Assembly: GCA_041398745.1 (NCBI GenBank)
Contig: JAWKUB010000005.1
Location: forward strand, 542,497 to 606,496
Source of the DNA: Planctomycetaceae bacterium
GTDB lineage: Bacteria > Planctomycetota > Planctomycetia > Planctomycetales > Planctomycetaceae
Direction: 5' to 3'
Length of the DNA stretch: 64,000 nt
This document shows, in pieces, positions 1 to 51,380 of the stretch. Positions within the stretch are counted from its first letter, which is position 1, and every line of letters starts with the position of its first letter. A program made the position numbers and the translations under genes. The notes beneath the pieces are model-generated. The model made no database searches. It had not been told where the DNA came from and worked only from the letters and a program-made list of their open reading frames with translations.

Positions 1-3000
1 ACCGTTGAAATCGCCGACCAGGAATGGCCCAGAAAAGGCTGTGTTCGAGAACTGGGGGCCCAGTGAGTTGATGAGGCGGTTCGCTCCAATTGCCCCATTC
101 GGAGTGGGCCCACCAGTGGCTGTGCCAAAAACAAAGCGCCCGTCGTTCCTTCGGGCTGCCACATCGGACCTGCCGTCGTTATCCCAGTCGCCAATTAGGA
201 CAGAGTGCCAGCCAACGGTTTCAATGCGCCCATTAAATGATCCTGCGAATTGGGCAAGGAGTCTTCGGGAACTGTCCGGGATGACATTCGAAATGCCATA
301 CAACCAGTTGACGCGGTCCACACCCACATTCGCATTTCGTAATCCGATAATGTCGTCGACGCCATCTTGATTGACGTCACCAACGCCGAAGTCGACCCAG
401 CCGCTTGCCTCCCATCGCCCGTAGAACGAAGTCCCAAATCCCGAACCATTGAAGGACTTCACGAACCAGCTCCCCGGCAGGGGCGTAGTGTTGTTCGTGT
501 CCTGTTGCACGATGAGATCATCGCGACCGTCGCCATTAAAGTCGCCCACGAGCATATGCTGGAACGTCTCCTGGGAGGAAAAACTTCCCGCCGACATAGT
601 GGTCATGGTACCGTCACCATTGTTGCGAGCGACGAAGACAGCATTCTGAGTTGAAATTCCAAGCCCGTCGGTAAGTCCATCACCATCAAAATCGCCGGTG
701 AAAGTTCGCCAGGAAACGAAAGGATTCCACTTAGGACCATCAATCCAGGTAAACATTGTCCCATCGCTGACACCCATGCGCCATCGCGATGCGCCTTCGT
801 CAAATATGATCAAATCATCACGGCGTCCGTTCCATTTGAGTTGATAATCTGGCCGGCCCCCAGTTTCAATTTCACTAATTTGGAGGTAATACAAACCATC
901 AGCGTCGAAGGTCATCGAGAGCCCTGTTGACGTGGGTGTGAGCTCCAAACCTTGGGCCAGTTCCGTTGTTCCATCAACGTCAAACAGAGTCAGCAATAGT
1001 CGGGCGCCTTCTTCAACATTGACGGTGAAGTCGTACGTTACGCCTGCCTCCACGTTGAGTTCAAAGAAATCTGTGTCCCCGAGATATTGAATGCCGCCGA
1101 CCACAGTGCCTTCCGGGATAAGACTTGCAGTTGATGCTGAATTGGCAAAGTCGTCCGCGAGCCCTTCGACTGCTCCAATGTCAATTGTTCCAAGTGCTCG
1201 GTTCTGATTGCGTTGGTCAACAGCAAGGGGCTGGCTGCCCTGTTGGCCATCTACGGTAGCGAAGACAGGCGAGCCGCTGTCCAAGGCTGGACTGCCCGGT
1301 ACTAAGCCATGAGTCGGCGTTTCACCGCCATTGTCTTGCAGCACAGTGTCCAGAATTGTGTTGATGTCGCGGAGTCCAATGCCGTTGACGCCAACAATAT
1401 TTCCGTTCGCTCCATCCGTCAGTCCACCTCGTGTACCGGCATATCCGATGATGCTGAAAGATGAGTTGGCATTAAGTGCCGCTCCCCGAACGTCATCCGG
1501 AACCGTGCCGAGCCCATTGAAGTTTCCGGCGACAATCGAATTGTGGACAATGACAGTGGTAGGTCCGCTATCGGAGGCGTGAATTCCGCCACCGATGTCA
1601 ATCACACTCCCGTTTCCATCAGCGTCGGCGCGGTTGCCAGTAATCGTACTGTTGATGATCGTGATCACACCGCCCAAGTGCATGATACCGCCACCGTCTC
1701 GATTTGCTGAATTGCCCGATATGGTGCTGTTGACAATGAGGTAATCGCCATGGGGGGCGATCCCTCCGCCGTCAACCAACGCTCGGTTGTTTGAAACCGT
1801 GCTGGAGTCGATGACGACCGGGCCCCAACCAGCAATTGCACCTCCTAATAGCGATATATTGTCGTAGATCCACAAATTCCTCAGCGTCGTGGGAGCAAAT
1901 CCAATCGAAATCGCCGCGCCATCCGACGCATTTTCACCGTTGTTGTTCGACGAGGTGGCTCTACCTTTAGTCAAGGACAAGCCAGAGATCTCGACGGTCG
2001 CAAAATCAATATCGAAAATCTGGAATTCATCGTTGCCGCTGATGGCAAGTTTCGATGGCCCCGGACCAACGATTGTCATGTCGGTGGTAAGTGCCAGCCT
2101 TCCATGCATCAGTGTAATCGTCTGAGGAAGCTCAGCCTCCTTGAAGGTGATGGTACTAGCATCGGGAGAATTGTTGGCGTAGATGATCGCTTCCCGCAAT
2201 GACAACGTGTCAGGCATGTCTATTTCGTCAACAAAGGTGTTGACGTTAAGCCGTTCGAATTCAACGGCCCCGATGTCAACGATTTCATTCATTACGCGAA
2301 CAAAGGGCGCTCCACGCTGATCGAATAGCAGTCGGTCACTCTGTCCATCAGCCGAGTGTGAATTGTTTCCATGGTCAATTGCCGGGCTGGTTGAGACCAG
2401 AGAATGGAAAGGCGTCTTCCCTGTTGGTTTCGTCAGCACCGTTTCGAGTATGGACTCAATTGGTCTTACCCCAGCCCCATCGAGTCCAACGATATTCCCT
2501 TGCTGTCCATCCTGCAGGCCGCCGGCGGTAGCAGCGTCACCAATCAGGTTGTTTGAAGAAGTCGAGTCGAATGGCTTGCCTCCTCGAATGTCATCGGAGG
2601 TACTTCCTGAATCAACGAAGTTTCCTGCCACAATTGAATTGTGCATGATGGGCTTGATGCCTCCATCGTCGCCAACATAAATGCCGCCACCAATTCCATT
2701 TGGAGTCCCTGGCCCATCAGCATTTGCACGGTTGCCGGTAATGGTGCTGTTGATGAAAAGGCCGGAACTGCGAGTACCGAAAATAATCCCTCCGCCGAAC
2801 CGATCGGCAGAGTTTCCTGACACCGTTGTATTGACCAACTCGAGATAACCAGCTCCGTTGTCGATCGCGCCACCGTGGGAGGCAGACATATTTCCGGTAA
2901 TTGCGCTATCCCTGATGACAAGGCTGCCGAGTGAGTTGTAGATCGCACCACCTTCCGACGTGGCAGTGTTCTGTGTAATCCAGGTGCGAGTGAGTGTCAG

Positions 3001-3510
3001 ATTCCCACCGTTACGGATGGCTCCGCCGAAGCCATCGTGTCCATTAGCTAGGGTCATGTCACTAATTGAAACCTCATAGTCCCCGATGAAGAACACGCGA
3101 GTCGTGTCATTTCCGCTGATTGTCAAAAGGTCCACACCCGGTCCAGTAATCGTCAGGTTTCCTTGAATGTTAAGAAAAATACCGCCGACAATGAGGGTCT
3201 GAGGACCGCCTGCAAAGAGACTGGGGTCGAAGGTAATGCTGTCGTCAAATGTGCCTGCTGGTGCATCTCCTGACGGCATGTTCGTGTTTGATGCCTCAAT
3301 CGCCTCTCGCAGGCTGATCAGTCCGTCTTCTACCCCGGGGTTGTCTAGCAACGTGTTTACAACATATGCGGTAAGCAAGGTTCGCGTCTCCAACAACTCC
3401 ACGGAATTCTTGCGTTGCCGAGCCCTCGAAGTCCTTCTCATGTGGAATTGCGATCGAAAATACGGGAGTAGAACGTCCAGAGTAGATCGCAGGGAATTGA
3501 ATTGAATCAT
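1..3510 (-). CDS. Large secreted repeat protein, partial (C-terminus lies beyond position 1). It has a planctomycete-type leader, two right-handed beta-helix blocks each introduced by an SLREAI (CSLREA-like) motif, a PPC-like beta-sandwich, then FG-GAP/VCBS-type GDFNGDG repeats.
   Basis: Absent from the ORF track because the frame stays open to the window edge. Manual minus-strand translation from the ATG at 3510 gives MIQFNSLRSTLDVLLPYFRSQFHMRRTSRARQRKNSVELLETRTLLTAYVVNTLLDNPGVEDGLISLREAIEASN... It also shows repeated NSTI(T/S)GN rungs, DTDFFELNVEAGVTYDFTV, and GDFDGDGLTDG / GDFNGDGRDDL / GDWDNDGRSDV. The frame was spot-checked at 3301-3510, 1981-2040 and 1-60. Confidence 0.8.
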   Translation of the reverse strand, partial: MIQFNSLRSTLDVLLPYFRSQFHMRRTSRARQRKNSVELLETRTLLTAYVVNTLLDNPGVEDGLISLREAIEASNTNMPSGDAPAGTFDDSITFDPSLFAGGPQTLIVGGIFLNIQGNLTITGPGVDLLTISGNDTTRVFFIGDYEVSISDMTLANGHDGFGGAIRNGGNLTLTRTWITQNTATSEGGAIYNSLGSLVIRDSAITGNMSASHGGAIDNGAGYLELVNTTVSGNSADRFGGGIIFGTRSSGLFINSTITGNRANADGPGTPNGIGGGIYVGDDGGIKPIMHNSIVAGNFVDSGSTSDDIRGGKPFDSTSSNNLIGDAATAGGLQDGQQGNIVGLDGAGVRPIESILETVLTKPTGKTPFHSLVSTSPAIDHGNNSHSADGQSDRLLFDQRGAPFVRVMNEIVDIGAVEFERLNVNTFVDEIDMPDTLSLREAIIYANNSPDASTITFKEAELPQTITLMHGRLALTTDMTIVGPGPSKLAISGNDEFQIFDIDFATVEISGLSLTKGRATSSNNNGENASDGAAISIGFAPTTLRNLWIYDNISLLGGAIAGWGPVVIDSSTVSNNRALVDGGGIAPHGDYLIVNSTISGNSANRDGGGIMHLGGVITIINSTITGNRADADGNGSVIDIGGGIHASDSGPTTVIVHNSIVAGNFNGLGTVPDDVRGAALNANSSFSIIGYAGTRGGLTDGANGNIVGVNGIGLRDINTILDTVLQDNGGETPTHGLVPGSPALDSGSPVFATVDGQQGSQPLAVDQRNQNRALGTIDIGAVEGLADDFANSASTASLIPEGTVVGGIQYLGDTDFFELNVEAGVTYDFTVNVEEGARLLLTLFDVDGTTELAQGLELTPTSTGLSMTFDADGLYYLQISEIETGGRPDYQLKWNGRRDDLIIFDEGASRWRMGVSDGTMFTWIDGPKWNPFVSWRTFTGDFDGDGLTDGLGISTQNAVFVARNNGDGTMTTMSAGSFSSQETFQHMLVGDFNGDGRDDLIVQQDTNNTTPLPGSWFVKSFNGSGFGTSFYGRWEASGWVDFGVGDVNQDGVDDIIGLRNANVGVDRVNWLYGISNVIPDSSRRLLAQFAGSFNGRIETVGWHSVLIGDWDNDGRSDVAARRNDGRFVFGTATGGPTPNGAIGANRLINSLGPQFSNTAFSGPFLVGDFNG

Positions 3511-3795
3511 GACATTCCACCTTGGGTGAACCAAACGTGATCGGGAAGAGGCCGATACGATGAAAACTTTCGAACATACATTACTTACTTTTCCGTATTC
3601 TAGACTGCAAGTGACGATGAACGCCATGAATCACAATGTCTCCAAGGCCGCAAAGTCAGATCGCGAAGAATCCCCTTGCGTGTAGATTCTTTCCAACGAT
3701 TATGTTGGCATGGAATGGCTGAATGCCTTTCTCCGAAAGCCGTATGAGGTGTGCGGCGGAGCGTCGGGGGCTTAGGCGACGGTAGGAGCCGGTGG

Positions 3796-6161: not shown

Positions 6162-6354
6162 CGCATCCATAAACGGGGCAAGAGGGGAGTCGTCGAGTCC
6201 AGACCTGCGTCCCCAGCCGGTCATTGGCCGACCAGTGAACCGTCCACACCCCGATCAACCGCCGGTCAGGTTTCCCTTGCACAAATGCCTGAACGATGTC
6301 ATGACCTCAGCCATGCAGGGCAGTGACGCCGGTTACTGACTCGCGTTGAGCTCC

Positions 6355-6500
6355 ACAGCACTTTTGCAATCTGCTCCGGCGTGTGCCGCTTCCGTCGCTT
6401 CTTCGTCACCCGCAAAGGTCTCTTCAATGCCACACAGGTAGTTGAAACACTCGTGGCACATGGACCAAGTCTTCAATTGCAGACCACTCCAATTCTTGGC
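6355..6500 (-). mobile_element. Remnant of the 5' region of an IS3-family-like element (leader plus the first ~17 codons of an HTH_Tnp_1-type OrfA). It is homologous to the remnant at 34523-34800 but inverted.
   Basis: The minus strand reads ...cttggtccatgtgccacgagtgtttcaactacctgtgtggcattgaagagacctttgcgggtgacgaagaagcgacggaagcggcacacgccggagcagattgcaaaagtgctg. This aligns by eye with 34590-34700. It encodes (V)TKKRRKRHTPEQIAKVL and then diverges. Confidence 0.7.
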
Positions 6501-6593: not shown

Positions 6594-7124
6594 ATGACAA
6601 AAGAACTTGAACTCGAATTGACATTCCTCGCCTCTCCGAGGTTGGTGACCCATTCACTGTTGGAAGGTGTAGATATGGTTGATGTGTACATCCCGTCCAA
6701 CACAAGTGTCGTGCATCCGCGATTACGGCTTCGGCAGCAGGCAGACCGCTACACCGTAACAAAAAAGATTCCCGTGAGCAGCGATGATGCATCGGCGCAC
6801 ACCGAGGAAACCATTTGCCTGACTCTTGACGAATTTGAATGCCTTTCAGCAGCGAGCGGTCGTAGGGTTGCGAAGACGAGATACAAATGTGACTTGGGAG
6901 GCCGAATAGCTGAAGTAGACGTCTTCAAGGAATCGCTTGCGGGCCTTGTCCTCATTGACTTTGAGTTTGCGAATTCTAGTGAACTTCTGGATTTCACCCC
7001 TCCACCTGAGTGCTTGGCAGATGTCACGCAGGAGGAGTTTATTGCGGGAGGAGTGCTCGCTGGAAAGTCCTACAATGATATTAGTCCGCAGCTAGAGAGA
7101 TTCAACTATGAACCAGTCCGGTAA
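6594..7124 (+). CDS. CYTH-domain (triphosphate tunnel metalloenzyme / CyaB-ThTPase-like) protein
   Basis: ExExK-type start (MTKELELELTF), then RLRLRQ, YTVTKK, AKTRYK and EVDVF...GLVLIDFEF acidic/basic strand pattern. The ATG at 6594 is preferred over the TTG at 6561. Confidence 0.65.
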   Translation: MTKELELELTFLASPRLVTHSLLEGVDMVDVYIPSNTSVVHPRLRLRQQADRYTVTKKIPVSSDDASAHTEETICLTLDEFECLSAASGRRVAKTRYKCDLGGRIAEVDVFKESLAGLVLIDFEFANSSELLDFTPPPECLADVTQEEFIAGGVLAGKSYNDISPQLERFNYEPVR

Positions 7125-7626
7125 ACGATCATCGCGGCAGGACACTGTTCGCTACTTTGGCAGTCTCGCCATTGCAGCACAAACTGATAGCGAGTCAGAG
7201 CTAGCCGTGCAGGCCCTAACTGAATGTAGCAACTTCCTTAAGGGCAAGTATGCACCAGGCCGGCATCACGTAGCCTCTGTCCTAAAGTGTGTTGGCAACA
7301 CCTACTTTGGTCTACACATAGACTGCGTAGGTTTCGACAGATGTGCCGAGGGTATAGCGCTTGCTAGCGCTGTAATGGCTGATGAAAGCGACTTTCAGAT
7401 CGTCGTTTCGATGATGTGGAATGGTGAGTCCGGTATTGAACCCTGGCTGATTCCGCCGTGCGGTGATTGTCGGCAATTCCTGCACGAATACGCCCCTAGT
7501 GTAAAGGTTGCTGTTGAGTCCGATGCGAGGATTCGTCTCCATCCGATAGAATGCCTGCTCCCATTTGCGTATAGTTCATCAGCTAAAACTGCTAAACGGA
7601 GGCTTCGCATTGTGGGTCGCGATTGA
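7108..7626 (+). CDS. Cytidine-deaminase-fold zinc enzyme (Cdd / blasticidin-S-deaminase type)
   Basis: CAEGIALASAV and PPCGDCRQFL zinc-ligand motifs. The start overlaps the CYTH gene by 17 nt. Confidence 0.75.
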   Translation: MNQSGKRSSRQDTVRYFGSLAIAAQTDSESELAVQALTECSNFLKGKYAPGRHHVASVLKCVGNTYFGLHIDCVGFDRCAEGIALASAVMADESDFQIVVSMMWNGESGIEPWLIPPCGDCRQFLHEYAPSVKVAVESDARIRLHPIECLLPFAYSSSAKTAKRRLRIVGRD

Positions 7627-8239
7627 TGGCACTGATGCAACTGGTAAGACTACTTTATGTCACCTTATCAGAGATCGCCTAGTTTCTCTTGGTTACAACG
7701 TGACGATAATTGGTGAATTCTCAGATTCGATTCTGGGCGATTTTCTCAATCGCATCGTCCGTGAGAGAAAGTATTTCTCATTCAGCAATGGCGACCCACC
7801 GCTTGCAGTTGCCGAGTCGCTTTGTCTGGTTGCGGATCTCGCCGCAAAGGCAAGCCAAGCGAAATACCAGCGTGGCTGTGATCTGGTGCTATCCGACCGC
7901 GGCGTCCTTTCCGTACTTGGCTATCAGTTTGCTCGGGTCTCGGATGTTTACGGTGCCTCCGTTGCCGAGAGAACGATTGACCAAATCCGTGAACTTATCT
8001 GTAACCTGGAGTTAGGGCCAGACTGTCATGTCTTCTTAGATGCAGGCTCCGCAACATTGCGGTCACGACTCGCCAAGAGATACGGAGGTTCGGTTTCACT
8101 GAGCGACCATGCTAAAGTGCTACGCTACCAGGAATGCTGCAAGAAATATCTGTCGGGTTCCGATTTCTGTATTGTCATTGATGAATGCGAGAATCTTGCA
8201 GGCCGAATTACTGAGATCGCATGCAAGCTAATTAATTGA
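7565..8239 (+). CDS. dTMP-kinase-like P-loop nucleotide kinase
   Basis: Walker A VAIDGTDATGKTT. VLSDRGVLSVLGYQF matches the DR(Y/F)xxSxxAYQ motif of thymidylate kinases. The true start may be the TTG near 7610. Either start overlaps the deaminase gene. Confidence 0.65.
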   Translation: MRIVHQLKLLNGGFALWVAIDGTDATGKTTLCHLIRDRLVSLGYNVTIIGEFSDSILGDFLNRIVRERKYFSFSNGDPPLAVAESLCLVADLAAKASQAKYQRGCDLVLSDRGVLSVLGYQFARVSDVYGASVAERTIDQIRELICNLELGPDCHVFLDAGSATLRSRLAKRYGGSVSLSDHAKVLRYQECCKKYLSGSDFCIVIDECENLAGRITEIACKLIN

Positions 8240-9505
8240 CTCCATATTCTTGATCTGATCGATGTTTTCGCACACCTTCATTAGACCTCGGAGATACTTG
8301 TCCATAATTGCGGCGTCGTCAAGCGTGGTCCACATTGGCATTTTTACGAGGCTCTCGTAGATCTCTTTGGCAACACTAAACCCTTCTTGCTTGGCGATAG
8401 GATCGTCGTAGAGTCGCGGAATTAGGCTTCCAGGAGATGTAAACAATGGCAGCTCATTCAGTAGTCCAGTTGACCCTGGGATGTCAAACTCCACTAGGCC
8501 TTCAGCATGCAAGGCACGCACGAATAGTTCACGGCTGATTCCAGCCAAGTCCTCACGAAAGCGAAATGGGAAGGCGTAAAACGACCATTCGTTCGGATTG
8601 CCGTTAATGTTTTCAAGAAAAGGAGTCGCATTGATATAGTCGAAAAAACGACGACCGTACTTCCGCTTCATGTCAAGGATGTCGTCCAGCCGATTAAGCA
8701 TCTCGAGCGCAATCGCGATTGCGAGTGGATGAGCCCGCAACTTTAGCCCCTCACCAGTAAGGTAGAAGCGTCGAAGTCCGTCGTCCTCAGGGATCTCTTG
8801 CTTGGGACGCTTGTTGTAGTGCCCTTGCAGCAGTGCACGCCTATAAAGGGAGGGATTATCGGTCGCAAAAACTCCCCCTTCTCCCCCCGTAACGATTTTT
8901 TGGCCTTGCAAGCTCCATGCCGCCACATCACCAAACGTTCCAACTAAGCGGCCAGAAATGCTCGCTCCATGAGCGTGTGAACAATCTTCTAGCAGGTAGA
9001 GGCCCCTATCCGAGCAGAACTGGGCAATCTCCTTGGTGTCCCTTGCAGGTACGCCCCACATGTGGGTAATCACCACAGCTCGAGTTCTAGCTGTGGTCTT
9101 GCCCTTCAATTCAGCAAGGGAAAGGCCGCACGATTCGTCACAGTCGGCAAACACCGGGACCGCGCCTGTCTGCATCAGTGGGCTGACTGCAGCATGGAAG
9201 GTATACACCGGGCATATTACCTCGTCGCCAGGACCAACCCCAATAGAATCAAACATTGCGAAGATCGAGGATGTCCCGGAATTTGACACGAGGCAGTACT
9301 GGCGTCCATGGTAGGATGCGAATCGGTCTTCGAAGGATTCGAACACGCCAGAACGGTCGTAGATCGAAATTGTTTGTCGGAGCTGTTCTAGGACCACCTT
9401 CTCGATTCGCTCGTCAATAATCGGCCATTTGAAGGCTGCATATTGGGAGTCTGCAATTGGCATTCCTCCGCATAAAGCCAATCGGGAGTTCGCGTTAGTT
9501 TGCAT
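8228..9505 (-). CDS. DegT/DnrJ/EryC1/StrS-family PLP-dependent aminotransferase
   Basis: DEVICPVYTFHAAVSPL, ITHMWGVPA, LLEDCSHAHGA and SLQGQKIVTGGEGG (PLP-lysine motif). The longest ORF starts at 9529. The 3' end overlaps the kinase gene convergently by 12 nt. Confidence 0.8.
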   Translation of the reverse strand: MQTNANSRLALCGGMPIADSQYAAFKWPIIDERIEKVVLEQLRQTISIYDRSGVFESFEDRFASYHGRQYCLVSNSGTSSIFAMFDSIGVGPGDEVICPVYTFHAAVSPLMQTGAVPVFADCDESCGLSLAELKGKTTARTRAVVITHMWGVPARDTKEIAQFCSDRGLYLLEDCSHAHGASISGRLVGTFGDVAAWSLQGQKIVTGGEGGVFATDNPSLYRRALLQGHYNKRPKQEIPEDDGLRRFYLTGEGLKLRAHPLAIAIALEMLNRLDDILDMKRKYGRRFFDYINATPFLENINGNPNEWSFYAFPFRFREDLAGISRELFVRALHAEGLVEFDIPGSTGLLNELPLFTSPGSLIPRLYDDPIAKQEGFSVAKEIYESLVKMPMWTTLDDAAIMDKYLRGLMKVCENIDQIKNMESIN

Positions 9506-10529
9506 TGAGTGATCTCCCAAGTAGCTCACGAGGATTCACGGTCAATCCGGTACGAGCGGACTCATAGGCCGCATCTACGAAAGCCACCTGTTCTAAGTAG
9601 TGCATTCCGAAGTCGTAATCGCCAATATTGTCCATTGCAAATTTCGCAAAATCTTCGATTTGGTCTGCCAATGCAGATGGCCACGCTCCGAATCGTTCCA
9701 TGGACTCGACAGTAGTTCCATCAATGTCATGACGCGCAATTTTTCCGCGTCGAACGCACGCCATTCCTTTGGTGCCATGTGCGACTAAATGCTCATCTTT
9801 CTCGCCATAAACCCGAGACACAATTAGGCTACCCAGCACTTCCTCACCCGGATTATTCTCGCAATATGAAAAGTTCACAAATGCTGTGTCCTCAACATCA
9901 TATTCCTGTCCAACTCTATTGCGCATCGACGTTCTGCATGTGATCAAATCAGGAAGCCCAAAATACCACACAATGAGGTCCACGTAATGGTATCCAAGGT
10001 CAATTAATGCCCCACCTCCCGAGTAAAGTCGACTTGCGCGCCAGCCGCAATCCAATCGCGATATGTTTAGTGCGTACTTTGCTTCAATGGAGAATATTCG
10101 ACCAATTCGGCGCAGCAACTGGGGAAAGCTTTGAAAGACCGGATTGTATCTCCTCTGAAGCGTTAGCGACAGAAGCACATTATTGGCTTCGACAACAGCT
10201 TTCATCTGCAGGGCTTCCTTCAGTGAAACTGCCAGTGGTTTTTCTTTGAGGATGTGAATGCCGGCCTCAGCGAGTTCGCAAACAGCCTCTAGATAACCAA
10301 CGTGCGGGATCGCAACGAGCGCGGCGGTTGGCTTGGGGTTCTCTTTCAGAAACTCACTGATGCTTTTTGCAAATGGCACCGCCAACGCTTTCCCGACGCG
10401 CGCGGCTTTCTCGATATCGGTGTCCACGACGCCAGCTAGGTGGACATCATCACTGGATTGGATCGCTGGGATGTGATCATCTAGGCTCTGGTGCCCGAGG
10501 CCGACAACAAGAAAATCGAAACTTGACAT
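9495..10529 (-). CDS. Gfo/Idh/MocA-family NAD(P)-dependent oxidoreductase
   Basis: Rossmann start MSSFDFLVVGLGHQSLDDHIPAI and the EKP motif (ILKEKPLAVSL). The longest ORF starts at 10589. Confidence 0.8.
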   Translation of the reverse strand: MSSFDFLVVGLGHQSLDDHIPAIQSSDDVHLAGVVDTDIEKAARVGKALAVPFAKSISEFLKENPKPTAALVAIPHVGYLEAVCELAEAGIHILKEKPLAVSLKEALQMKAVVEANNVLLSLTLQRRYNPVFQSFPQLLRRIGRIFSIEAKYALNISRLDCGWRASRLYSGGGALIDLGYHYVDLIVWYFGLPDLITCRTSMRNRVGQEYDVEDTAFVNFSYCENNPGEEVLGSLIVSRVYGEKDEHLVAHGTKGMACVRRGKIARHDIDGTTVESMERFGAWPSALADQIEDFAKFAMDNIGDYDFGMHYLEQVAFVDAAYESARTGLTVNPRELLGRSLNAN

Positions 10530-10585
10530 TCTCTCTCCCCTTCGCTTGCCCGCCGAACACAAACAGTATGGCATTTTGCTTAACG

Positions 10586-11128
10586 TCAATCAATCGAGAG
10601 CCGATCAAGTATGGTTCGTCGGAAAGGGTTTTGGTCGAGATTCCCGACGCGTAGGGAGTACAGGTCCATCAGGAGAGCCAGGTAGGCGAACTGTCCCCGT
10701 TGACAAAGCGGCAAATACGTGATGTCACCGACCCACACTTCGTTGATCTTCACCGGTTGTGGACGGTCCAGCAGGAGGTTGTCGTTGTAACCCAGTGTGT
10801 GCCTGCTTTCCGTGGTTCGGGGCTGGAACGATTTGGGCTGGATGGCTCTGAGACCCAGTGTTTTCATCACTCGCGAGACTCGATCCACACCACACAGAAC
10901 ATTGCGTTCCCGCAGTTCCGCCGCGATGCGACGTGCTCCATAGCGTCGCTTGTGTTGATGAAAGATCTCGCCAATCATCGCGTGTAGCGGTTCTTCCTGC
11001 TCTCTTTGAGGAGACACTCTTTCACGCTTCCAGGCGTGAAAGCCAGATCGAGAAACGTTCAATGTGCGACACACCACACTCACCGGAAATGCCTCTTGAA
11101 AAATCACCTGCTGAATTGCTGAGTACAC
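10586..11128 (-). pseudogene. IS3-family transposase OrfB, truncated
   Basis: It matches OrfB of the intact copy up to ...FAYLALLMDLYS, then runs into unrelated sequence. Only the first catalytic D region (WVGDITY) is retained. Confidence 0.85.
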
Positions 11129-11499
11129 GTCGGCTACCCGCTGCGGCTGAAAATGGACAAGGCTTTTTTTAGGATGTCACGCTCCCGCTCGACCCGCCGG
11201 AGTTCCTCTTCCAGTTGCCGCACCCGCGCTTCCAGTGACTCGGCCGCCACTCCTGCCTGGCTGATGAACTCCCGCTTCCAGCGGTACAACAAATTCACGC
11301 TGGAAAGCCCCAGCCGCTGTGCCACCGCCGGGGCCGACTGACCATCCAAGTGCAACTGCACAGCGTCTCGCTTGAAGTCCTCGGTGTACGTTCGACGCTC
11401 CCGAGTCGTCGCTTTTGTACTCTTTCCGCGTGCCATCGGTCTTCCTCCCGACCACACAGAATAAGATTTCCAACTGTCCACGAAATCCCAAGCAACTCA
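10650..11499 (-). mobile_element. IS3-family element, 3'-truncated copy. IRL and OrfA are intact; OrfB is cut within the DDE core.
   Basis: The terminal sequence TGAGTTGCTTGGGATTTCGTGGACAG (minus strand, ending at 11499) matches the IR of the intact copy at 43168 except for one base. Homology to the intact copy is lost near 10650, right after ...LALLMDLYS. Confidence 0.85.
11134..11481 (-). CDS. IS3-family transposase OrfA (HTH), in the truncated copy
   Basis: 115 aa, differing from OrfA at 43186-43533 at two residues (KATT versus KTKT). Confidence 0.85.
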   Translation of the reverse strand: MDSWKSYSVWSGGRPMARGKSTKATTRERRTYTEDFKRDAVQLHLDGQSAPAVAQRLGLSSVNLLYRWKREFISQAGVAAESLEARVRQLEEELRRVERERDILKKALSIFSRSG

Positions 11500-47963: not shown

Positions 47964-48257
47964 TCCTCAGCCGGTTCCCTCGAGCGCCCAGCCACCACGG
48001 CAAGGCCAAAGAAACGGTAGAGGATGGGGGTGGGGAAGTCTATGGTGTGGGGATGGTGACTGAGTCGCAGTTGAAGCTGGAGAGTAACTTCAGGGACATG
48101 TGCGTGAGTTGGTGGACACGATAAGCTGTGACTGAGAGTTGATTGTCTACCAGAATCTCTGTCAAACTCTATTAATAATGGATCAATTTCTTTTGCCAAT
48201 GCCGACCGTAGTTTGCACAGGATTTTACGATCAAAGAAAGCGGGTTTGGCCAGATCG

Positions 48258-51200
48258 ATGATATTCATCAACTATCGAAAGAGCGATACTCAGGGAGTGG
48301 TTGACCATTTGGCGTTTCGCCTGAAGAGCCAGTTTGGAGACGAGGCAGTCTTCAAAGATGATGCCGACCTGCAGGGCGGCGAACGGTGGCCCGCACGCCT
48401 AAGGGATGAGATTAGCAATCGACAAGTCGTCTTGGCCGTTATTGGTCCTGACTGGCTGACAGCCGAAGATCAGAGTGGAAACAGACGGCTTGATAATTGT
48501 GACGACTGGGTTCGTCAAGAACTCTGCTTGGCATTCGACCTCGATCGAGACGTCCTAGTGCTCCTTGTGGACGGTGCCAAAGTTCCCTCCAAGCAAGACC
48601 TGCCAGATTCAGCACTCCGAATGTTACCTGAGATTCAGACACTTCCGTTAAGGACGGGACGGGACTTTGAAGCCGACTTGGAGAGACTTGCTGAACGATT
48701 ACTTCAGTTGACTCATTCTCGGCTTCCTGGCGGCGGCGGGAAAGCACTAGGTACACCTGTCGACACGTCGAATCTGCCTTTCGTCGGCGACAGTTTCATT
48801 GGTCGAGTTGAGGAACTGAGGAGGCTTCAGCAAGCACTAACCGGTTCGCAACAGCAGTCGCTGGTTACGGTTTGGGGACCACCCGGATCTGGAAAGACAA
48901 GACTGGCCGTTCAGGTTGCGAGGCTCATCTCGTCTCGGTTTTCTGGAGGCTGCTGGTTTGCAGATCTTTCCGACTGCCAATCCGCTGACGATGTTGCTCA
49001 TGCGGTGGCCAAGGCATTTTCAGTACCATTAACTGGCAAGACTTCCCCAACTGAAGAAGTTGCGCGTGTCCTCGAATACAGGAAGCCGATGTTGCTTATC
49101 TTGGACAACTTTGAACAAGTCGCGGAAACTGCACCTGACACAATTGTGTACTGGAGGCGGGTTGCCCCGCAAGTTCGTTTCCTCACAACAAGCCGCACGC
49201 TTCTGGCAATTGCAGACGAACATGAGTTCATGTTGGATCCGCTACCTATTCCCGAAGGAAATTGTCAGCAATTTACGGAAGAAGAGCTTCTGAATTATGG
49301 AGCTATTCAATTGTTTGTTGAAAGAGCGAGTAGTGTGCGTCCAGAATTTCGCCTTGACGATCAAAATGCCAGTGATGTCGTGTCAATATGCCAACGTTTG
49401 GATGGTGTGCCGTTGGCGATCGAACTGGCTGCAGCGCGAATGCGGATTTTTCAAACAGGTCAACTGCTTGAGCGACTGGAGAAGCGGTTTGACATTCTGA
49501 AGTCAAATCGGAGAGACATTCATCGTCGTCATCAAACATTATTGGCAGCAATCGATTGGAGTTTTGATCTGCTCCAACCTTGGGAGCAAGAGACGCTCTT
49601 GCAAGCTTCCATCTTCCGCGGGGGCTTCTTCCTTAGTGCTGCGGAGGAAATCATCGACCTTTCCGCCAGCGAGGGATCCCCGACTGTAATGGACGCGGTT
49701 CAGTCCTTATGCGAGAAAGGTCTGCTCGTCGCCTCCGACACAATTCATGGAACGCGATTTCGGATGCTTCTGACAATTCGCGAGTTTGGTCAGTCTCGAA
49801 TTGAGCAATCGTGGAGCCCTGAGAAACTGAGTGCACTGTGGAATGCGTTTACCCAGTCATACCTCAAGTATGCGACGAACTGGAACGATCGAATTCACAG
49901 CGAGAGTTGCCGAGTTGCTTTGGATCGACTGGAACTTGAAATCCCGAACTGTCTTGCAGCATACGACTGGCAGATGGATACGGAAGATTTCGACAACTGT
50001 GCTCTAATCATACTCGCTTTGGGCGAGGTTCTCACGCTTCGCGGGCCAGTGCATGAACGGATCCCAAGGATTGAAATGTGCCTCCAGAACGTCTCGGCAC
50101 TGAAAAAAGAATACGCTGGAGAACTCGCGGTCGTACTCGTTGATGCGATGCACGATATTGGTGAATGGGAACGCGGCATCGAGTTGGCAGTTCGAACGCA
50201 GGAAGAATTGAGCCATGACGCGAATGAATTGATGGCACAGTTGCTGTTTATTCACTCACGGATGCTTTGCCTTCGAGGAAGTTACCTGGAGGCCATCAAC
50301 GGATTGCGCGAGGCGCAGCGACGGTTTGAAGAATTCGGTGACGAGCGAAGATTATCCAACTGTGCAAGCCAGCTGGGTTGGGCTTACATGCACATCGGAG
50401 AAGATGATCTTGCACTTGAATGTTACGTCTCCGCAGAAAGGCACGGCAGAACAGCAGGGGATCCGCTGGCAGTTGCAGCTGCTTACAATAATCGTGGTGT
50501 TTTCCACAATGATCGAAGAGAGTTGGACGATGCACTGAAGCATATGAAACAGGCCGAACTAATGTTTGCAGAGTCAGGAGATCGGCGCTCGTCAGCGCTC
50601 CCAATAAGCAACCAAGCAACTGTGTTCCAGAAGCGCCGACAGTTTGACGCAGCGATTGTGTGTTGTGACAAAGCGGAGGAGATCAACCGGGAGTTCGGAA
50701 ACCACTATTCGCTAGCTGCCAACATCAACAATCGCGCGATGGCAAATCGTAGCTTTGGGCGATTACAAGTTGCCATTGATGGTTACAAGGAAGCGGAAAG
50801 CATTAACCGACGACTTGGAAACCTGCCATGGCTTGCAAAGAATCTCAACAATCGTGGATTAGTGCATATGGATCTTGAACAGTTTGATGAGGCTGTTCAG
50901 AGTTTTCGTGAGTCAGAAGAGATTTGTACTTTGATTGGCAGTGATCGTGGGAGAGCGTATGCTTTGAACAACTGGGGGCGAGTCTTGGGGAGAATGGGAA
51001 ATCACGAACGAGCTTTGGAACTGATTTCCGAGGCCGAGGTGATCAATCGCAGAACTGAGAACTGGGAGGAACTTGCCGAAAATCTGGGAAATCGTGGAAG
51101 ACTTCTATTCGATCAGGGAAGTCTCATCGAAGCAGATTCCGCACTATGTGCATCGCTCGAAATGTACGAAGAAGGTGACGTCCGAAATCTGTACCGATTC

Positions 51201-51380
51201 GAGTTTACAGTGATCCGAGCCTTGGTCTTAAAGGCCTTGGGGCCCCAAACGGAGTGGGAAACCCTTGCTGCCACTGCGATTCAACTTGCCGATGAACTTG
51301 ATTTGGCCGAGCAAGACCAGTCGACATGGTTCGTGCGTCTATTGCCGTTGGTACGGAATCTCACGAACTCTGAGCGTTGA
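48258..51380 (+). CDS. TIR - NB-ARC (STAND) - TPR protein
   Basis: MIFINYRKSDTQ... and DWVRQELCLA (TIR). Walker A WGPPGSGKTRLA, Walker B MLLILDNFE, and DGVPLAIELAAARM (GxP motif). The C-terminus carries many TPR-like NNRG/LG.. repeats. Confidence 0.8.
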   Translation: MIFINYRKSDTQGVVDHLAFRLKSQFGDEAVFKDDADLQGGERWPARLRDEISNRQVVLAVIGPDWLTAEDQSGNRRLDNCDDWVRQELCLAFDLDRDVLVLLVDGAKVPSKQDLPDSALRMLPEIQTLPLRTGRDFEADLERLAERLLQLTHSRLPGGGGKALGTPVDTSNLPFVGDSFIGRVEELRRLQQALTGSQQQSLVTVWGPPGSGKTRLAVQVARLISSRFSGGCWFADLSDCQSADDVAHAVAKAFSVPLTGKTSPTEEVARVLEYRKPMLLILDNFEQVAETAPDTIVYWRRVAPQVRFLTTSRTLLAIADEHEFMLDPLPIPEGNCQQFTEEELLNYGAIQLFVERASSVRPEFRLDDQNASDVVSICQRLDGVPLAIELAAARMRIFQTGQLLERLEKRFDILKSNRRDIHRRHQTLLAAIDWSFDLLQPWEQETLLQASIFRGGFFLSAAEEIIDLSASEGSPTVMDAVQSLCEKGLLVASDTIHGTRFRMLLTIREFGQSRIEQSWSPEKLSALWNAFTQSYLKYATNWNDRIHSESCRVALDRLELEIPNCLAAYDWQMDTEDFDNCALIILALGEVLTLRGPVHERIPRIEMCLQNVSALKKEYAGELAVVLVDAMHDIGEWERGIELAVRTQEELSHDANELMAQLLFIHSRMLCLRGSYLEAINGLREAQRRFEEFGDERRLSNCASQLGWAYMHIGEDDLALECYVSAERHGRTAGDPLAVAAAYNNRGVFHNDRRELDDALKHMKQAELMFAESGDRRSSALPISNQATVFQKRRQFDAAIVCCDKAEEINREFGNHYSLAANINNRAMANRSFGRLQVAIDGYKEAESINRRLGNLPWLAKNLNNRGLVHMDLEQFDEAVQSFRESEEICTLIGSDRGRAYALNNWGRVLGRMGNHERALELISEAEVINRRTENWEELAENLGNRGRLLFDQGSLIEADSALCASLEMYEEGDVRNLYRFEFTVIRALVLKALGPQTEWETLAATAIQLADELDLAEQDQSTWFVRLLPLVRNLTNSER

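What the first reader, a model, noticed from the sequence alone, without database searches (positions are those of the whole stretch)
6594..8239. Overlapping CYTH - cytidine deaminase - dTMP-kinase-like operon on a mobile element: possible split nucleotide-depletion or nucleotide-modifying module
Seen: three co-directional genes whose coding regions overlap (7108-7124, and around 7565-7626).
- One is a triphosphate-tunnel (CYTH) protein.
- One is a CAE...PCGxCRQ deaminase.
- One is a P-loop kinase with the thymidylate-kinase DRxxSxxxYQ motif.

Established (from memory): defensive dCTP/dCMP deaminases of the AvcD type combine a P-loop kinase-like domain and a deaminase domain in one polypeptide. 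Nucleotide kinases also accompany nucleotide-analogue-producing defence enzymes.

Here the two activities are separate genes in the opposite order, and a CYTH enzyme is added. The operon begins right at the inner edge of an IS remnant, next to excisionase and initiator genes rather than in a nucleotide-metabolism neighbourhood.

Inference: a deoxynucleotide-pool-manipulating or modified-nucleotide-producing system.
Basis: partly seen in the sequence, partly recalled or inferred. Interest (0 to 1): 0.7.

Follow-up and report, generated by a model that had tools for sequence, protein, structure and literature searches.

The report
CYTH-type aminonucleotide synthesis gene module
The three overlapping genes are real, but they are half of a five-gene module whose core enzymes are related to those that make 3'-amino-3'-deoxynucleoside antibiotics, so this is probably an undescribed variant of that pathway rather than a split nucleotide-depleting defence enzyme.

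Summary
The CYTH, cytidine-deaminase-like and dTMP-kinase-like genes exist as described and overlap by 17 nt at each junction.

In other genomes these two genes sit beside the same CYTH family in three different arrangements. All 9 informative close DegT relatives have the CYTH gene adjacent. The deaminase occurs only where the pair is present (6/15 against 0/65 loci). A nucleotide kinase of varying family usually accompanies them.

The window's DegT is 38-39% identical to the aminotransferase of the Photorhabdus/Pantoea adgB-E clusters. Those clusters are pur10/pur4/pur7/pur3 homologues and make 3'-amino-3'-deoxyguanosine.

Here CYTH stands where the Nudix enzyme normally is, and no phosphatase or exporter is present. 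The deaminase has His/Asp in place of the conserved Asn/Glu that bind the ribose 3'/5' oxygens.

Best reading: synthesis of a 3'-amino-3'-deoxy pyrimidine nucleotide. Its chemistry and its role (antibiotic or antiviral) are untested. AvcD-like depletion and ordinary salvage are not supported. Verdict: a new variant of a known kind.

The parts
6594..7124 (+). CYTH / triphosphate-tunnel metalloenzyme, 176 aa. It belongs to a family with an invariant ExExT motif in place of ExExK.
   Evidence: PDB NeuTTM at E 5e-12. AF2 pLDDT 90.5, with Foldseek top hits NeuTTM, SaTTM and YgiF. More than 830 homologues at about 55% identity. In alignment A1, E6, E8, T10, R45, R47, K58, E107, D109 and E124 are invariant.
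7108..7626 (+). Cytidine-deaminase-like protein, 172 aa, tetrameric-CDA type. The zinc and catalytic residues are intact; the ribose-binding Asn/Glu are replaced by His/Asp.
   Evidence: NCBIfam and PDB cytidine deaminase hits, all below cut-off. Alignment A4: CAE and PCGxCRQ are invariant. HHV corresponds to B. subtilis F24->H, and LH[IL]D to N42->H and E44->D. About 22 representative clusters in 1.84 billion carry this signature.
7610..8239 (+). dTMP-kinase-like P-loop nucleotide kinase, 209 aa. The ORF opens at 7565; the likely start is TTG 7610 behind a GGAGG.
   Evidence: Pfam Thymidylate_kin 1.8e-7; TIGR00041 9e-11, below cut-off; PHROG thymidylate kinase 5e-13. Homologues at 27-32% identity (up to 69 bits) lie next to Gfo-DegT-Nudix clusters in six metagenome loci.
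8228..9529 (-). DegT/DnrJ/EryC1-family PLP aminotransferase of the Pur4/AdgC type. The likely start is ATG 9505, which overlaps the upstream gene by 11 nt.
   Evidence: Pfam DegT 4.5e-57. 39% identity / 281 bits to the Pantoea carbekii plasmid enzyme and 38% / 260 bits to the Photorhabdus laumondii adgC-type enzyme. The best PDB hit scores only 126 bits. The PLP lysine K211 is invariant.
9495..10589 (-). Gfo/Idh/MocA NAD-dependent oxidoreductase of the Pur10/AdgB type. The likely start is ATG 10529.
   Evidence: Pfam GFO_IDH_MocA N- and C-terminal domains. 38% identity to the Streptomyces plasmid cluster enzyme and 29% / 114 bits to the Photorhabdus adgB-type enzyme. The best PDB hit scores 61 bits. 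The EKP motif and D177..H181 are invariant.
10586..11481 (-). Truncated IS3-family element (orfA 11134-11481; orfB 10586-11128, cut inside the rve domain). It abuts the oxidoreductase start.
   Evidence: Pfam HTH_Tnp_1 and HTH_21, and only positions 4-34 of the rve profile.
6340..6470 (-). Possible short transposase-like remnant at the left edge of the module. Unverified.
   Evidence: The minus-strand translation contains KKRRKRHTPEQIAKVL. It has no Pfam hit.

Best explanation
Bases 6594-10589 form one five-gene module. It most likely makes a 3'-amino-3'-deoxy ribonucleotide or nucleoside, probably a cytosine/uracil one.

**Proposed steps**
1. The Gfo/Idh/MocA enzyme oxidises the ribose 3'-OH of a nucleoside triphosphate with NAD+. 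This is inferred from homology to Pur10/AdgB.
2. The translationally coupled DegT enzyme transaminates the 3'-keto group to 3'-NH2. This is inferred from homology to Pur4/AdgC.
3. The CYTH enzyme takes the place of the Nudix enzyme Pur7/AdgD and hydrolyses the triphosphate of the product. That would limit self-poisoning or commit the intermediate. This is inferred from gene replacement and the fold.
4. The deaminase, whose ribose-3'/5' pocket is changed from Asn/Glu to His/Asp, converts the 3'-amino cytidine analogue to the uridine analogue, either as tailoring or as self-protection. This is inferred.
5. The dTMP-kinase-like enzyme phosphorylates the analogue monophosphate. This is inferred.

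**Shown:** gene content, intact catalytic motifs, conserved linkage across phyla, and homology to a validated cluster.

**Not shown:** any activity, the base, the 3' (as opposed to 2') position, the order of steps 3-5, and whether the product is exported as an antibiotic or used inside the cell.
For: **Linkage**
- The same CYTH family lies next to a Gfo+DegT pair in Saccharibacteria, an Actinomycetes MAG, Cellulomonas and Mycobacteroides. Three arrangements occur: co-directional, divergent and, in this window, convergent.
- Searching from DegT, all 9 informative loci with close relatives (HMM score >= 600) have CYTH adjacent.
- The deaminase is present in 6 of 15 pair-bearing CYTH loci and in 0 of 65 CYTH-only loci (Fisher p = 1.7e-5).
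- In related Saccharibacteria genomes the three core genes occupy different positions as one block (L037/L054 against L060).

**Homology to a validated pathway**
- Window DegT is 38% identical (260 bits, E 6e-88) to the P. laumondii aminotransferase. That gene's context is Gfo-DegT-NUDIX-Inositol_P, matching the published adgB-E cluster that makes 3'-amino-3'-deoxyguanosine (PMC9239236).
- Window DegT is 39% identical (281 bits) to the Pantoea carbekii plasmid version.
- Window Gfo scores 114 bits against the Photorhabdus enzyme and only 61 bits against the best PDB entry.

**Nucleotide-centred accessory genes around the pair**
- NUDIX follows DegT in 38 of 80 DegT-anchored loci, and DegT-NUDIX fusion proteins exist.
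- Kinases of many families accompany the pair: NDK-like, ADK-like, dNK, TMK-like, AAA_33 and APH.

**Deaminase pocket**
- In tetrameric CDAs, Asn42 and Glu44 hydrogen-bond the ribose 3'/5' oxygens and are highly conserved. Ordinary CDAs accept 3'-amino-3'-deoxycytidine poorly (PMC9897663).
- This family has invariant His and Asp at those positions.

**Intact enzymes**
- Catalytic motifs are intact in all five proteins.
Against: - No enzyme activity or product was tested.
- Identity to AdgB/AdgC is moderate (29% and 38%). Pur10 and Pur4 themselves could not be fetched for a direct comparison or a tree.
- Gfo+DegT pairs also make 3-amino sugars (RifL/RifK, NtdC/NtdA, WbpB/WbpE), so a sugar or NDP-sugar substrate is not excluded.
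- CYTH is a core gene in Saccharibacteria. It stands alone in 65 of 80 loci in housekeeping contexts. Linked and unlinked copies are equally similar to the window's, so part of the adjacency could reflect a docking site.
- A pathway that makes a triphosphate, hydrolyses it, deaminates the nucleoside and re-phosphorylates it looks circular, so the roles of the three accessory enzymes are guesses.
- Tetrameric CDAs act on nucleosides, yet no phosphatase is encoded here.
Confidence: 0.55

Rival explanations
1. Intracellular antiviral chain-terminator system, viperin-like in logic. The pair makes a 3'-amino-3'-deoxy-NTP that blocks phage RNA or DNA synthesis. The kinases keep the analogue phosphorylated. 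CYTH and the deaminase act as safety valves for the host. This uses the same chemistry as the best explanation but gives it a defence role.
For: - The window's module has kinases but no phosphatase and no exporter, unlike the adg and pur clusters.
- It lies beside a stretch of conflict-type genes: S/T kinase, caspase, TIR, DUF4062-AAA, subtilase and trypsin-like.
- One Saccharibacteria copy is next to MazG-like, SLFN-type helicase and type ISP restriction genes.
- Distant relatives (38-41% DegT identity) form an operon with an EAD1-TPR-AIRS protein. EAD1 is a conflict-system adaptor domain (PMC7159879).
- Presence of the module varies between related genomes.
Against: - No PADLOC hit for any of the five proteins beyond a P-loop match.
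- Neighbourhoods elsewhere are often housekeeping: P-type ATPase, cytochrome oxidase, glycosyltransferases.
- No sensor or regulator is encoded in the module.
- The closest characterised relatives are antibiotic clusters.
- Nothing in the searched literature describes such a defence.
Confidence: 0.2
2. Amino-sugar pathway. The oxidoreductase and aminotransferase 3-aminate a sugar phosphate or NDP-sugar, as in kanosamine synthesis by RifL/RifK or NtdC/NtdA. The nucleotide enzymes recycle the released nucleotide.
For: - Both enzyme families are best known from sugar chemistry. PDB neighbours include GenD2, WlbA, BtrR, AHBA synthase and NtdA.
- Some distant loci carry a MobA-like nucleotidyltransferase.
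- Nudix enzymes can cleave NDP-sugars (general knowledge).
Against: - The DegT is far closer to the adgC-type enzyme (260-281 bits) than to any solved sugar aminotransferase (at most 126 bits; NtdA 60 bits).
- A nucleoside deaminase with a remodelled ribose pocket, a triphosphate-tunnel enzyme and NMP/NDP kinases have no obvious role in sugar amination.
- No glycosyltransferase or sugar kinase is part of the conserved set.
Confidence: 0.13
3. One reading: a split AvcD-like system, or another nucleotide-pool-depleting system, formed by the deaminase, the kinase-like protein and CYTH alone.
For: - A deaminase and a P-loop protein are adjacent and translationally coupled.
- CYTH enzymes hydrolyse triphosphates.
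- The location is an island of conflict-type genes.
Against: - The deaminase is of the nucleoside-CDA type, and such enzymes do not take nucleotides.
- No PADLOC dCTP-deaminase hit.
- The trio is not conserved on its own. The deaminase occurs only where the Gfo-DegT pair is present.
- The kinase partner changes family from locus to locus.
Confidence: 0.05
4. Ordinary salvage genes (cdd, tmk) and a housekeeping CYTH gene that happen to lie together.
For: - The CYTH family is a core gene in Saccharibacteria.
- The catalytic residues of the deaminase and the kinase are intact.
Against: - Both score far below the NCBIfam equivalog cut-offs.
- The deaminase belongs to a rare subfamily with changed substrate-binding residues.
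- The genes sit between IS remnants in a segment of lower G+C (0.506 against 0.535).
- Their linkage to Gfo-DegT is conserved across phyla.
Confidence: 0.04

Closest known systems
adgA-E cluster of Photorhabdus luminescens, which makes 3'-amino-3'-deoxyguanosine (PMC9239236)
   Same: An adjacent, co-transcribed Gfo/Idh/MocA oxidoreductase and DegT aminotransferase. Window DegT is 38-39% identical and window Gfo 27-29% identical to the Photorhabdus and Pantoea versions. The expected chemistry is oxidation and then transamination of a ribonucleotide 3' position.
   Different: The window has no Nudix (adgD), no inositol-monophosphatase-type phosphatase (adgE) and no MFS exporter (adgA). It has a CYTH enzyme, a cytidine-deaminase-like enzyme and a dTMP-kinase-like kinase instead. 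Those partners suggest a pyrimidine base rather than guanine.
Early steps of puromycin, A201A and cystocin biosynthesis: Pur10, Pur4, Pur7, Pur3 (PMC11641026)
   Same: The same enzyme families and the same order for the first two steps. Pur7 removes the toxic triphosphate, which is the role proposed here for CYTH.
   Different: There is no aminoacyl-nucleoside synthetase, methyltransferase, acetyltransferase or phosphatase. Direct comparison with the Pur proteins was not possible with the tools available.
Prokaryotic viperins with associated nucleotide kinases (ddhNTP chain terminators)
   Same: Only the proposed logic: an enzyme-made nucleotide modified at the 3' position, with a nucleotide kinase encoded alongside.
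   Different: There is no radical-SAM enzyme. The chemistry is different, and no defence phenotype is known.
Blasticidin S deaminase and tetrameric cytidine deaminases
   Same: The CAE...PCGxCRQ zinc site and the fold family. A resistance-type role for the deaminase is conceivable.
   Different: The ribose-binding Asn42/Glu44 and the Phe24 position are replaced by His/Asp/His. All scores are below the curated cut-offs.
AvcD / dCTP deaminase defence
   Same: A deaminase is combined with a P-loop protein.
   Different: The genes are separate, the order is opposite, the deaminase is nucleoside-type rather than dCMP-type, and there is no PADLOC match.

Membership tests
Aminonucleoside biosynthetic clusters (pur10/pur4/pur7/pur3; adgB-E) | Gfo/Idh/MocA NAD-dependent dehydrogenase homologous to Pur10/AdgB | tested here: met
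   29% identity, 114 bits, E 1e-33 to the Photorhabdus adgB-type protein, and 38% to the Streptomyces plasmid cluster enzyme. The EKP and D..H motifs are present. This shows homology only; activity was not tested.
Aminonucleoside biosynthetic clusters (pur10/pur4/pur7/pur3; adgB-E) | DegT-family aminotransferase homologous to Pur4/AdgC, immediately downstream of the dehydrogenase | tested here: met
   38-39% identity and 260-281 bits. The two genes overlap by 11 nt. The PLP lysine is conserved.
Aminonucleoside biosynthetic clusters (pur10/pur4/pur7/pur3; adgB-E) | Nudix pyrophosphatase (Pur7/AdgD) | tested here: not met
   There is no Nudix gene in 6.5-10.6 kb. A CYTH gene is present instead. 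Nudix follows DegT in 38 of 80 DegT-anchored relatives, mostly the more distant ones.
Aminonucleoside biosynthetic clusters (pur10/pur4/pur7/pur3; adgB-E) | Inositol-monophosphatase-type phosphatase (Pur3/AdgE) and an exporter | tested here: not met
   Neither is encoded in or beside the module.
Aminonucleoside biosynthetic clusters (pur10/pur4/pur7/pur3; adgB-E) | The product is a 3'-amino-3'-deoxynucleoside | not testable with these tools
   Needs heterologous expression and LC-MS.
AvcD-type dCTP deaminase defence | A dCMP/dCTP-deaminase-type domain with a P-loop domain, recognised by defence-system profiles | tested here: not met
   PADLOC gives no hit for the deaminase and only a P-loop-only VakA match for the kinase. 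The deaminase matches nucleoside CDA models.
Housekeeping cytidine deaminase (Cdd, TIGR01354 / NF005314) | Score above the equivalog cut-off, and conserved Asn/Glu ribose-binding residues | tested here: not met
   37 bits against 114, and 59 against 131. N42->H and E44->D are invariant in the family.
Housekeeping thymidylate kinase (Tmk, TIGR00041) | Score above the equivalog cut-off | tested here: not met
   41.8 bits against 83.25. PDB TMKs match only at E about 0.1.
CYTH / triphosphate tunnel metalloenzymes | Eight-stranded tunnel fold with acidic and basic tunnel residues | tested here: met
   AF2 model with pLDDT 90.5; Foldseek hits NeuTTM, SaTTM, YgiF and AtTTM3. R45, R47, K58, E107, D109 and E124 are invariant.
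CYTH / triphosphate tunnel metalloenzymes | N-terminal ExExK signature | tested here: not met
   The family has an invariant ExExT (E6, E8, T10). The lysine is absent in all 29 aligned members.

The most novel reading that the evidence does not exclude
The module is a self-contained antiviral or conflict system that makes a 3'-amino-3'-deoxy pyrimidine NTP inside the cell as a chain terminator. The kinases push the analogue to the triphosphate. The CYTH enzyme and the remodelled deaminase hold it in check until needed.

A still more exotic variant is that the ExExT CYTH enzyme acts as a cyclase on the 3'-amino-NTP and gives a 3',5'-cyclic phosphoramidate nucleotide.
Probability: 0.2. Interest if true: 0.85.

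Novelty: new variant of a known kind. Interest (0 to 1): 0.6.

Why it matters
- Natural 3'-aminonucleosides (the puromycin core, 3'-amino-3'-deoxyadenosine, ADG) are potent inhibitors of transcription and translation. Only purine versions, with a Nudix/phosphatase route, have been characterised.
- This module points to a distinct route that is probably pyrimidine-based and retains the phosphates. It has a dedicated deaminase and a CYTH enzyme.
- It is found mostly in Saccharibacteria, which are uncultured episymbionts with tiny genomes. It has also moved by horizontal transfer into Actinobacteria and a planctomycete.
- If the chemistry holds, it would add a new natural nucleoside analogue and three enzymes tuned to a 3'-amino sugar (a deaminase, a kinase and a triphosphatase). 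It would also give a testable idea about how Saccharibacteria interact with their hosts or phages.
- Cultured carriers exist (Mycobacteroides saopaulense, Cellulomonas algicola), so the idea can be tested directly.

Tried and rejected
- **Exact-sequence look-ups.** The window's deaminase and CYTH returned no contigs.
- **Word-based homologue search for the deaminase.** It found one unrelated Firmicute protein in a spore-germination context, which was not informative.
- **Phages and plasmids.** tblastn with the CYTH protein found only distant matches at about 30% identity. Viral contigs hold no DegT relative and only one CYTH relative, so a phage origin is rejected.
- **Regulatory features.** Rfam found nothing in or around the module. 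Promoter and terminator scans were at chance level. Repeat searches found no terminal repeats framing the module.
- **Literature.** Searches combining CYTH, DegT, MocA, Nudix, aminonucleoside, anti-phage and chain termination found no description of this system. The eLife paper that defined EAD1 does not mention it. A look-up of the PDB codes of the best DegT hits was uninformative.
- **Direct comparison with Pur10/Pur4.** This was not possible because their sequences could not be fetched. The Photorhabdus and Pantoea adg-type clusters were used as the anchor instead.
- **Structure prediction of the deaminase.** Not attempted, because the family alignment contains locus-derived sequences that the tool does not accept.
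- **Defence association.** Surveying neighbours of the module in other genomes gave mixed contexts: conjugation genes, restriction-like helicases and housekeeping genes. It neither supports nor excludes a defence role.
Full report
**1. What is in the sequence**

Three co-directional ORFs occupy 6561/6594-7124, 7108-7626 and 7565/7610-8239 on the + strand.
- The CYTH stop and the deaminase ATG overlap by 17 nt.
- The kinase most likely starts at TTG 7610, seven bases after GGAGG. That again overlaps the deaminase stop by 17 nt.
- Gene 1 gets no Pfam hit. It matches the Nitrosomonas triphosphatase NeuTTM at E 5e-12. Its AlphaFold model (pLDDT 90.5) retrieves NeuTTM, SaTTM, YgiF and other tunnel enzymes.
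- Gene 2 matches tetrameric cytidine deaminases and blasticidin-S deaminase, but far below curated cut-offs.
- Gene 3 matches dTMP kinase, also below cut-off.

Its description of the flanks is weaker.
- The left 'IS remnant' is a 43-aa fragment without a Pfam hit.
- The 'excisionase' is a sub-threshold HTH_17 match.
- The 'initiator' has only a faint winged-helix match.

**2.

Two further genes lie convergent with the kinase.
- A DegT aminotransferase sits at 8228-9529 (-). Its 3' end overlaps the kinase's by 12 nt.
- A Gfo/Idh/MocA oxidoreductase sits at 9495-10589 (-). The two are translationally coupled, with an 11-nt overlap if DegT starts at ATG 9505.
- A truncated IS3 copy (10586-11481) abuts the oxidoreductase start.
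- The 4-kb block has G+C 0.506, against 0.535 for the rest of the window.

The window is planctomycete DNA.
- It carries PSCyt/PSD/DUF1501 genes.
- The CYTH protein is identical to a Planctomycetaceae MAG protein.

**3. Linkage in other genomes**

The CYTH protein belongs to a family of more than 830 proteins at about 55% identity, mostly from Saccharibacteria.

Contexts of single members:
- Gfo>DegT>CYTH>deaminase>dNK kinase in an Actinomycetes MAG.
- NUDIX<DegT<Gfo next to CYTH>APH in a Saccharibacterium.
- A minimal Gfo>DegT>CYTH operon in Mycobacteroides saopaulense.

A scan of species-representative genomes found 285 relatives of the CYTH protein. Results for the best 80 loci:
- 15 have the pair next to CYTH, and 6 of those also have the deaminase directly after CYTH.
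- In the other 65 loci CYTH stands in housekeeping contexts, for example beside a UvrD-like helicase, TrpRS, RsmD, Obg or a HAM1-like gene.
- No deaminase occurs in those 65 loci (Fisher p = 1.7e-5).

The reverse search, anchored on DegT in metagenomes:
- All nine informative loci with close relatives have CYTH adjacent.
- More distant relatives keep the Gfo-DegT pair but carry NUDIX instead.

So CYTH is a general enzyme that this clade of the pair always travels with. The set has moved together into Actinobacteria and a planctomycete, in three different gene arrangements. In two lineages it lies next to type IV secretion coupling proteins.

**4. What the core resembles**

tblastn of the window's DegT against plasmids found three clusters:
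- A 6.3-kb Candidatus Pantoea carbekii plasmid made of repA plus Gfo-aminotransferase-NUDIX-inositol monophosphatase.
- A Streptomyces plasmid with Gfo-aminotransferase-NUDIX.
- A Bacillus thuringiensis plasmid cluster with an MFS transporter, a MazG-like protein, a class I tRNA ligase and a GNAT acetyltransferase.

The Pantoea enzyme has 72-79% identical homologues in Xenorhabdus, Proteus, Providencia and Photorhabdus laumondii. The Photorhabdus gene sits in Gfo-DegT-NUDIX-Inositol_P. That is the arrangement published as adgB-E: homologues of pur10, pur4, pur7 and pur3 that make 3'-amino-3'-deoxyguanosine, a transcription chain terminator once phosphorylated (PMC9239236; PMC11641026).

| Window protein | adg-type relatives | Best solved structure |
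|---|---|---|
| DegT | 38-39% identity, 260-281 bits | 126 bits |
| Gfo | 27-29% identity, 90-114 bits | 61 bits |

The Gfo is also 38% identical to the Streptomyces plasmid enzyme. The catalytic lysine of DegT and the EKP and D..H motifs of Gfo are invariant.

**5. The accessory enzymes**

Kinase:
- A nucleotide kinase accompanies the module in many loci, but its family changes from locus to locus.
- NDK-like kinases occur in L026, L029, L094, L097 and L098.
- L021 has an ADK-like kinase and L026 an AAA_33 kinase.
- L008/L010 carry a dNK.
- An APH-type kinase occurs in L004/L011/L090/L103.
- The window carries the TMK-like kinase.
- The window's kinase has homologues at 27-32% identity (up to 69 bits) beside Gfo-DegT-NUDIX clusters in six metagenome loci. 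That is much closer than its match to solved thymidylate kinases.

Deaminase:
- It belongs to a rare subfamily. A full HMMER scan of 1.84 billion representatives gave 45 hits at E <= 1e-10.
- Only the top ~22 share the signature HH[VA]...LH[LIM]D...CAE...PCGxC[RA]Q.
- Aligned to B. subtilis CDA, the His and Asp replace Asn42 and Glu44.
- In tetrameric CDAs those residues hydrogen-bond the ribose 3'/5' oxygens and are highly conserved. Ordinary CDAs accept 3'-amino-3'-deoxycytidine poorly and do not take CMP (PMC9897663).
- A remodelled 3' pocket fits a 3'-modified cytidine substrate. This is an inference.

CYTH:
- The family has an invariant ExExT in place of ExExK. The other tunnel residues are kept.

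**6. Most likely mechanism**
1. Gfo oxidises the 3'-OH of a ribonucleoside triphosphate.
2. DegT transaminates the 3'-keto group to 3'-NH2.
3. CYTH, standing where Nudix Pur7/AdgD normally is, hydrolyses the triphosphate of the toxic product.
4. The deaminase converts the cytidine analogue to the uridine analogue.
5. The TMK-like kinase phosphorylates the monophosphate.

Steps 1-2 rest on homology to a validated cluster. Steps 3-5 rest on gene replacement, the fold and the residue changes, and their order is uncertain. The pyrimidine assignment rests only on the identity of the accessory enzymes.

The biological role is open.
- Kinases without a phosphatase or exporter, the neighbouring conflict-type genes in the window, and EAD1-TPR-AIRS partners in distant relatives hint at an intracellular role.
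- The closest characterised relatives are antibiotic clusters, and contexts elsewhere are mixed.

**7. Rivals**
- AvcD-like depletion is not supported. The deaminase is nucleoside-type, PADLOC gives no match, and the trio is not conserved on its own.
- Ordinary salvage is not supported. Scores are sub-threshold, binding residues are changed, and the linkage is conserved.
- A 3-amino-sugar pathway cannot be excluded. It is disfavoured by the much closer similarity to adgC-type enzymes and by the nucleotide-specific accessory genes.

**8. Novelty and verdict**

No description of a Gfo-DegT-CYTH(-deaminase-kinase) system was found in the searchable literature. I rate it a new variant of a known kind: an aminonucleoside-type pathway with a different set of nucleotide-handling enzymes and an unusual taxonomic home. 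Interest is 0.6, because the chemistry is plausible and directly testable but nothing has been demonstrated.

Noticed in passing
L126-L147, L150-L151, L155, L157, L159, L169 (e.g. L137:3727-9811): In 22 actinobacterial-type metagenome loci the Gfo-DegT-NUDIX genes are preceded in the same operon by a ~1060-aa protein. It combines EAD1 (effector-associated domain 1), TPR repeats and a PurM/ThiL-like AIRS domain. This looks like an undescribed conflict-system architecture, and the paper that defined EAD1 does not mention it.
   Followed up: partly
P0153, P0156-P0158, P0160, P0161: Single proteins of about 557-570 aa fuse the adgC-type DegT aminotransferase to a NUDIX domain, mostly in candidate-phyla-radiation bacteria. 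This is a gene-fusion argument that the two activities act in one pathway.
   Followed up: no
window 12107-34433 and 48213-51380: The module is followed by a run of conflict-type genes: a Ser/Thr kinase, a caspase-like peptidase, a 1589-aa protein with no Pfam hit, a TIR protein, a DUF4062-AAA protein, a subtilase and a trypsin-like protease. A separate TIR-NB-ARC-TPR protein lies further on.
   Followed up: partly
L172 (Candidatus Pantoea carbekii plasmid pBMSBPS2, whole record): A 6.3-kb plasmid of a stink-bug gut symbiont consists of repA plus a complete adgB-E-like set (Gfo, aminotransferase, NUDIX, inositol monophosphatase). The symbiont may therefore make a 3'-aminonucleoside.
   Followed up: no
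L171:1420-8712 and L173:6123-14870: Streptomyces sp. 769 plasmid pSGZL has an extra alaS next to Gfo-aminotransferase-NUDIX. B. thuringiensis pBT62A has oxidoreductase-DegT-MFS-MazG-like-class I tRNA ligase-GNAT. Both look like uncharacterised aminoacyl-aminonucleoside antibiotic clusters.
   Followed up: no
L010-L089 (e.g. L044, L057, L069): The ExExT CYTH family is close to a core gene in Saccharibacteria. In one clade it is followed by a HAM1/ITPase-like gene, which hints at a general nucleotide-pool cleaning role.
   Followed up: partly
L086:7645-8719, L091-L093, L060:8721-9977, L154, L156: In several genomes the oxidoreductase or the aminotransferase is split into two ORFs. These are apparent frameshifts, so the module seems to be decaying in some lineages.
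   Followed up: no
window 1-3630 (- strand): This stretch looked gene-free in the ORF list. It is in fact one open reading frame of at least 1210 codons running off the window start, with beta-helix-like and FG-GAP/VCBS-like repeats. It marks the left limit of the variable region.
   Followed up: yes
window 8228-8239: The kinase and the aminotransferase are convergent and their coding 3' ends overlap by 12 nt, with no terminator between them. Transcription from the two sides would therefore collide.
   Followed up: no
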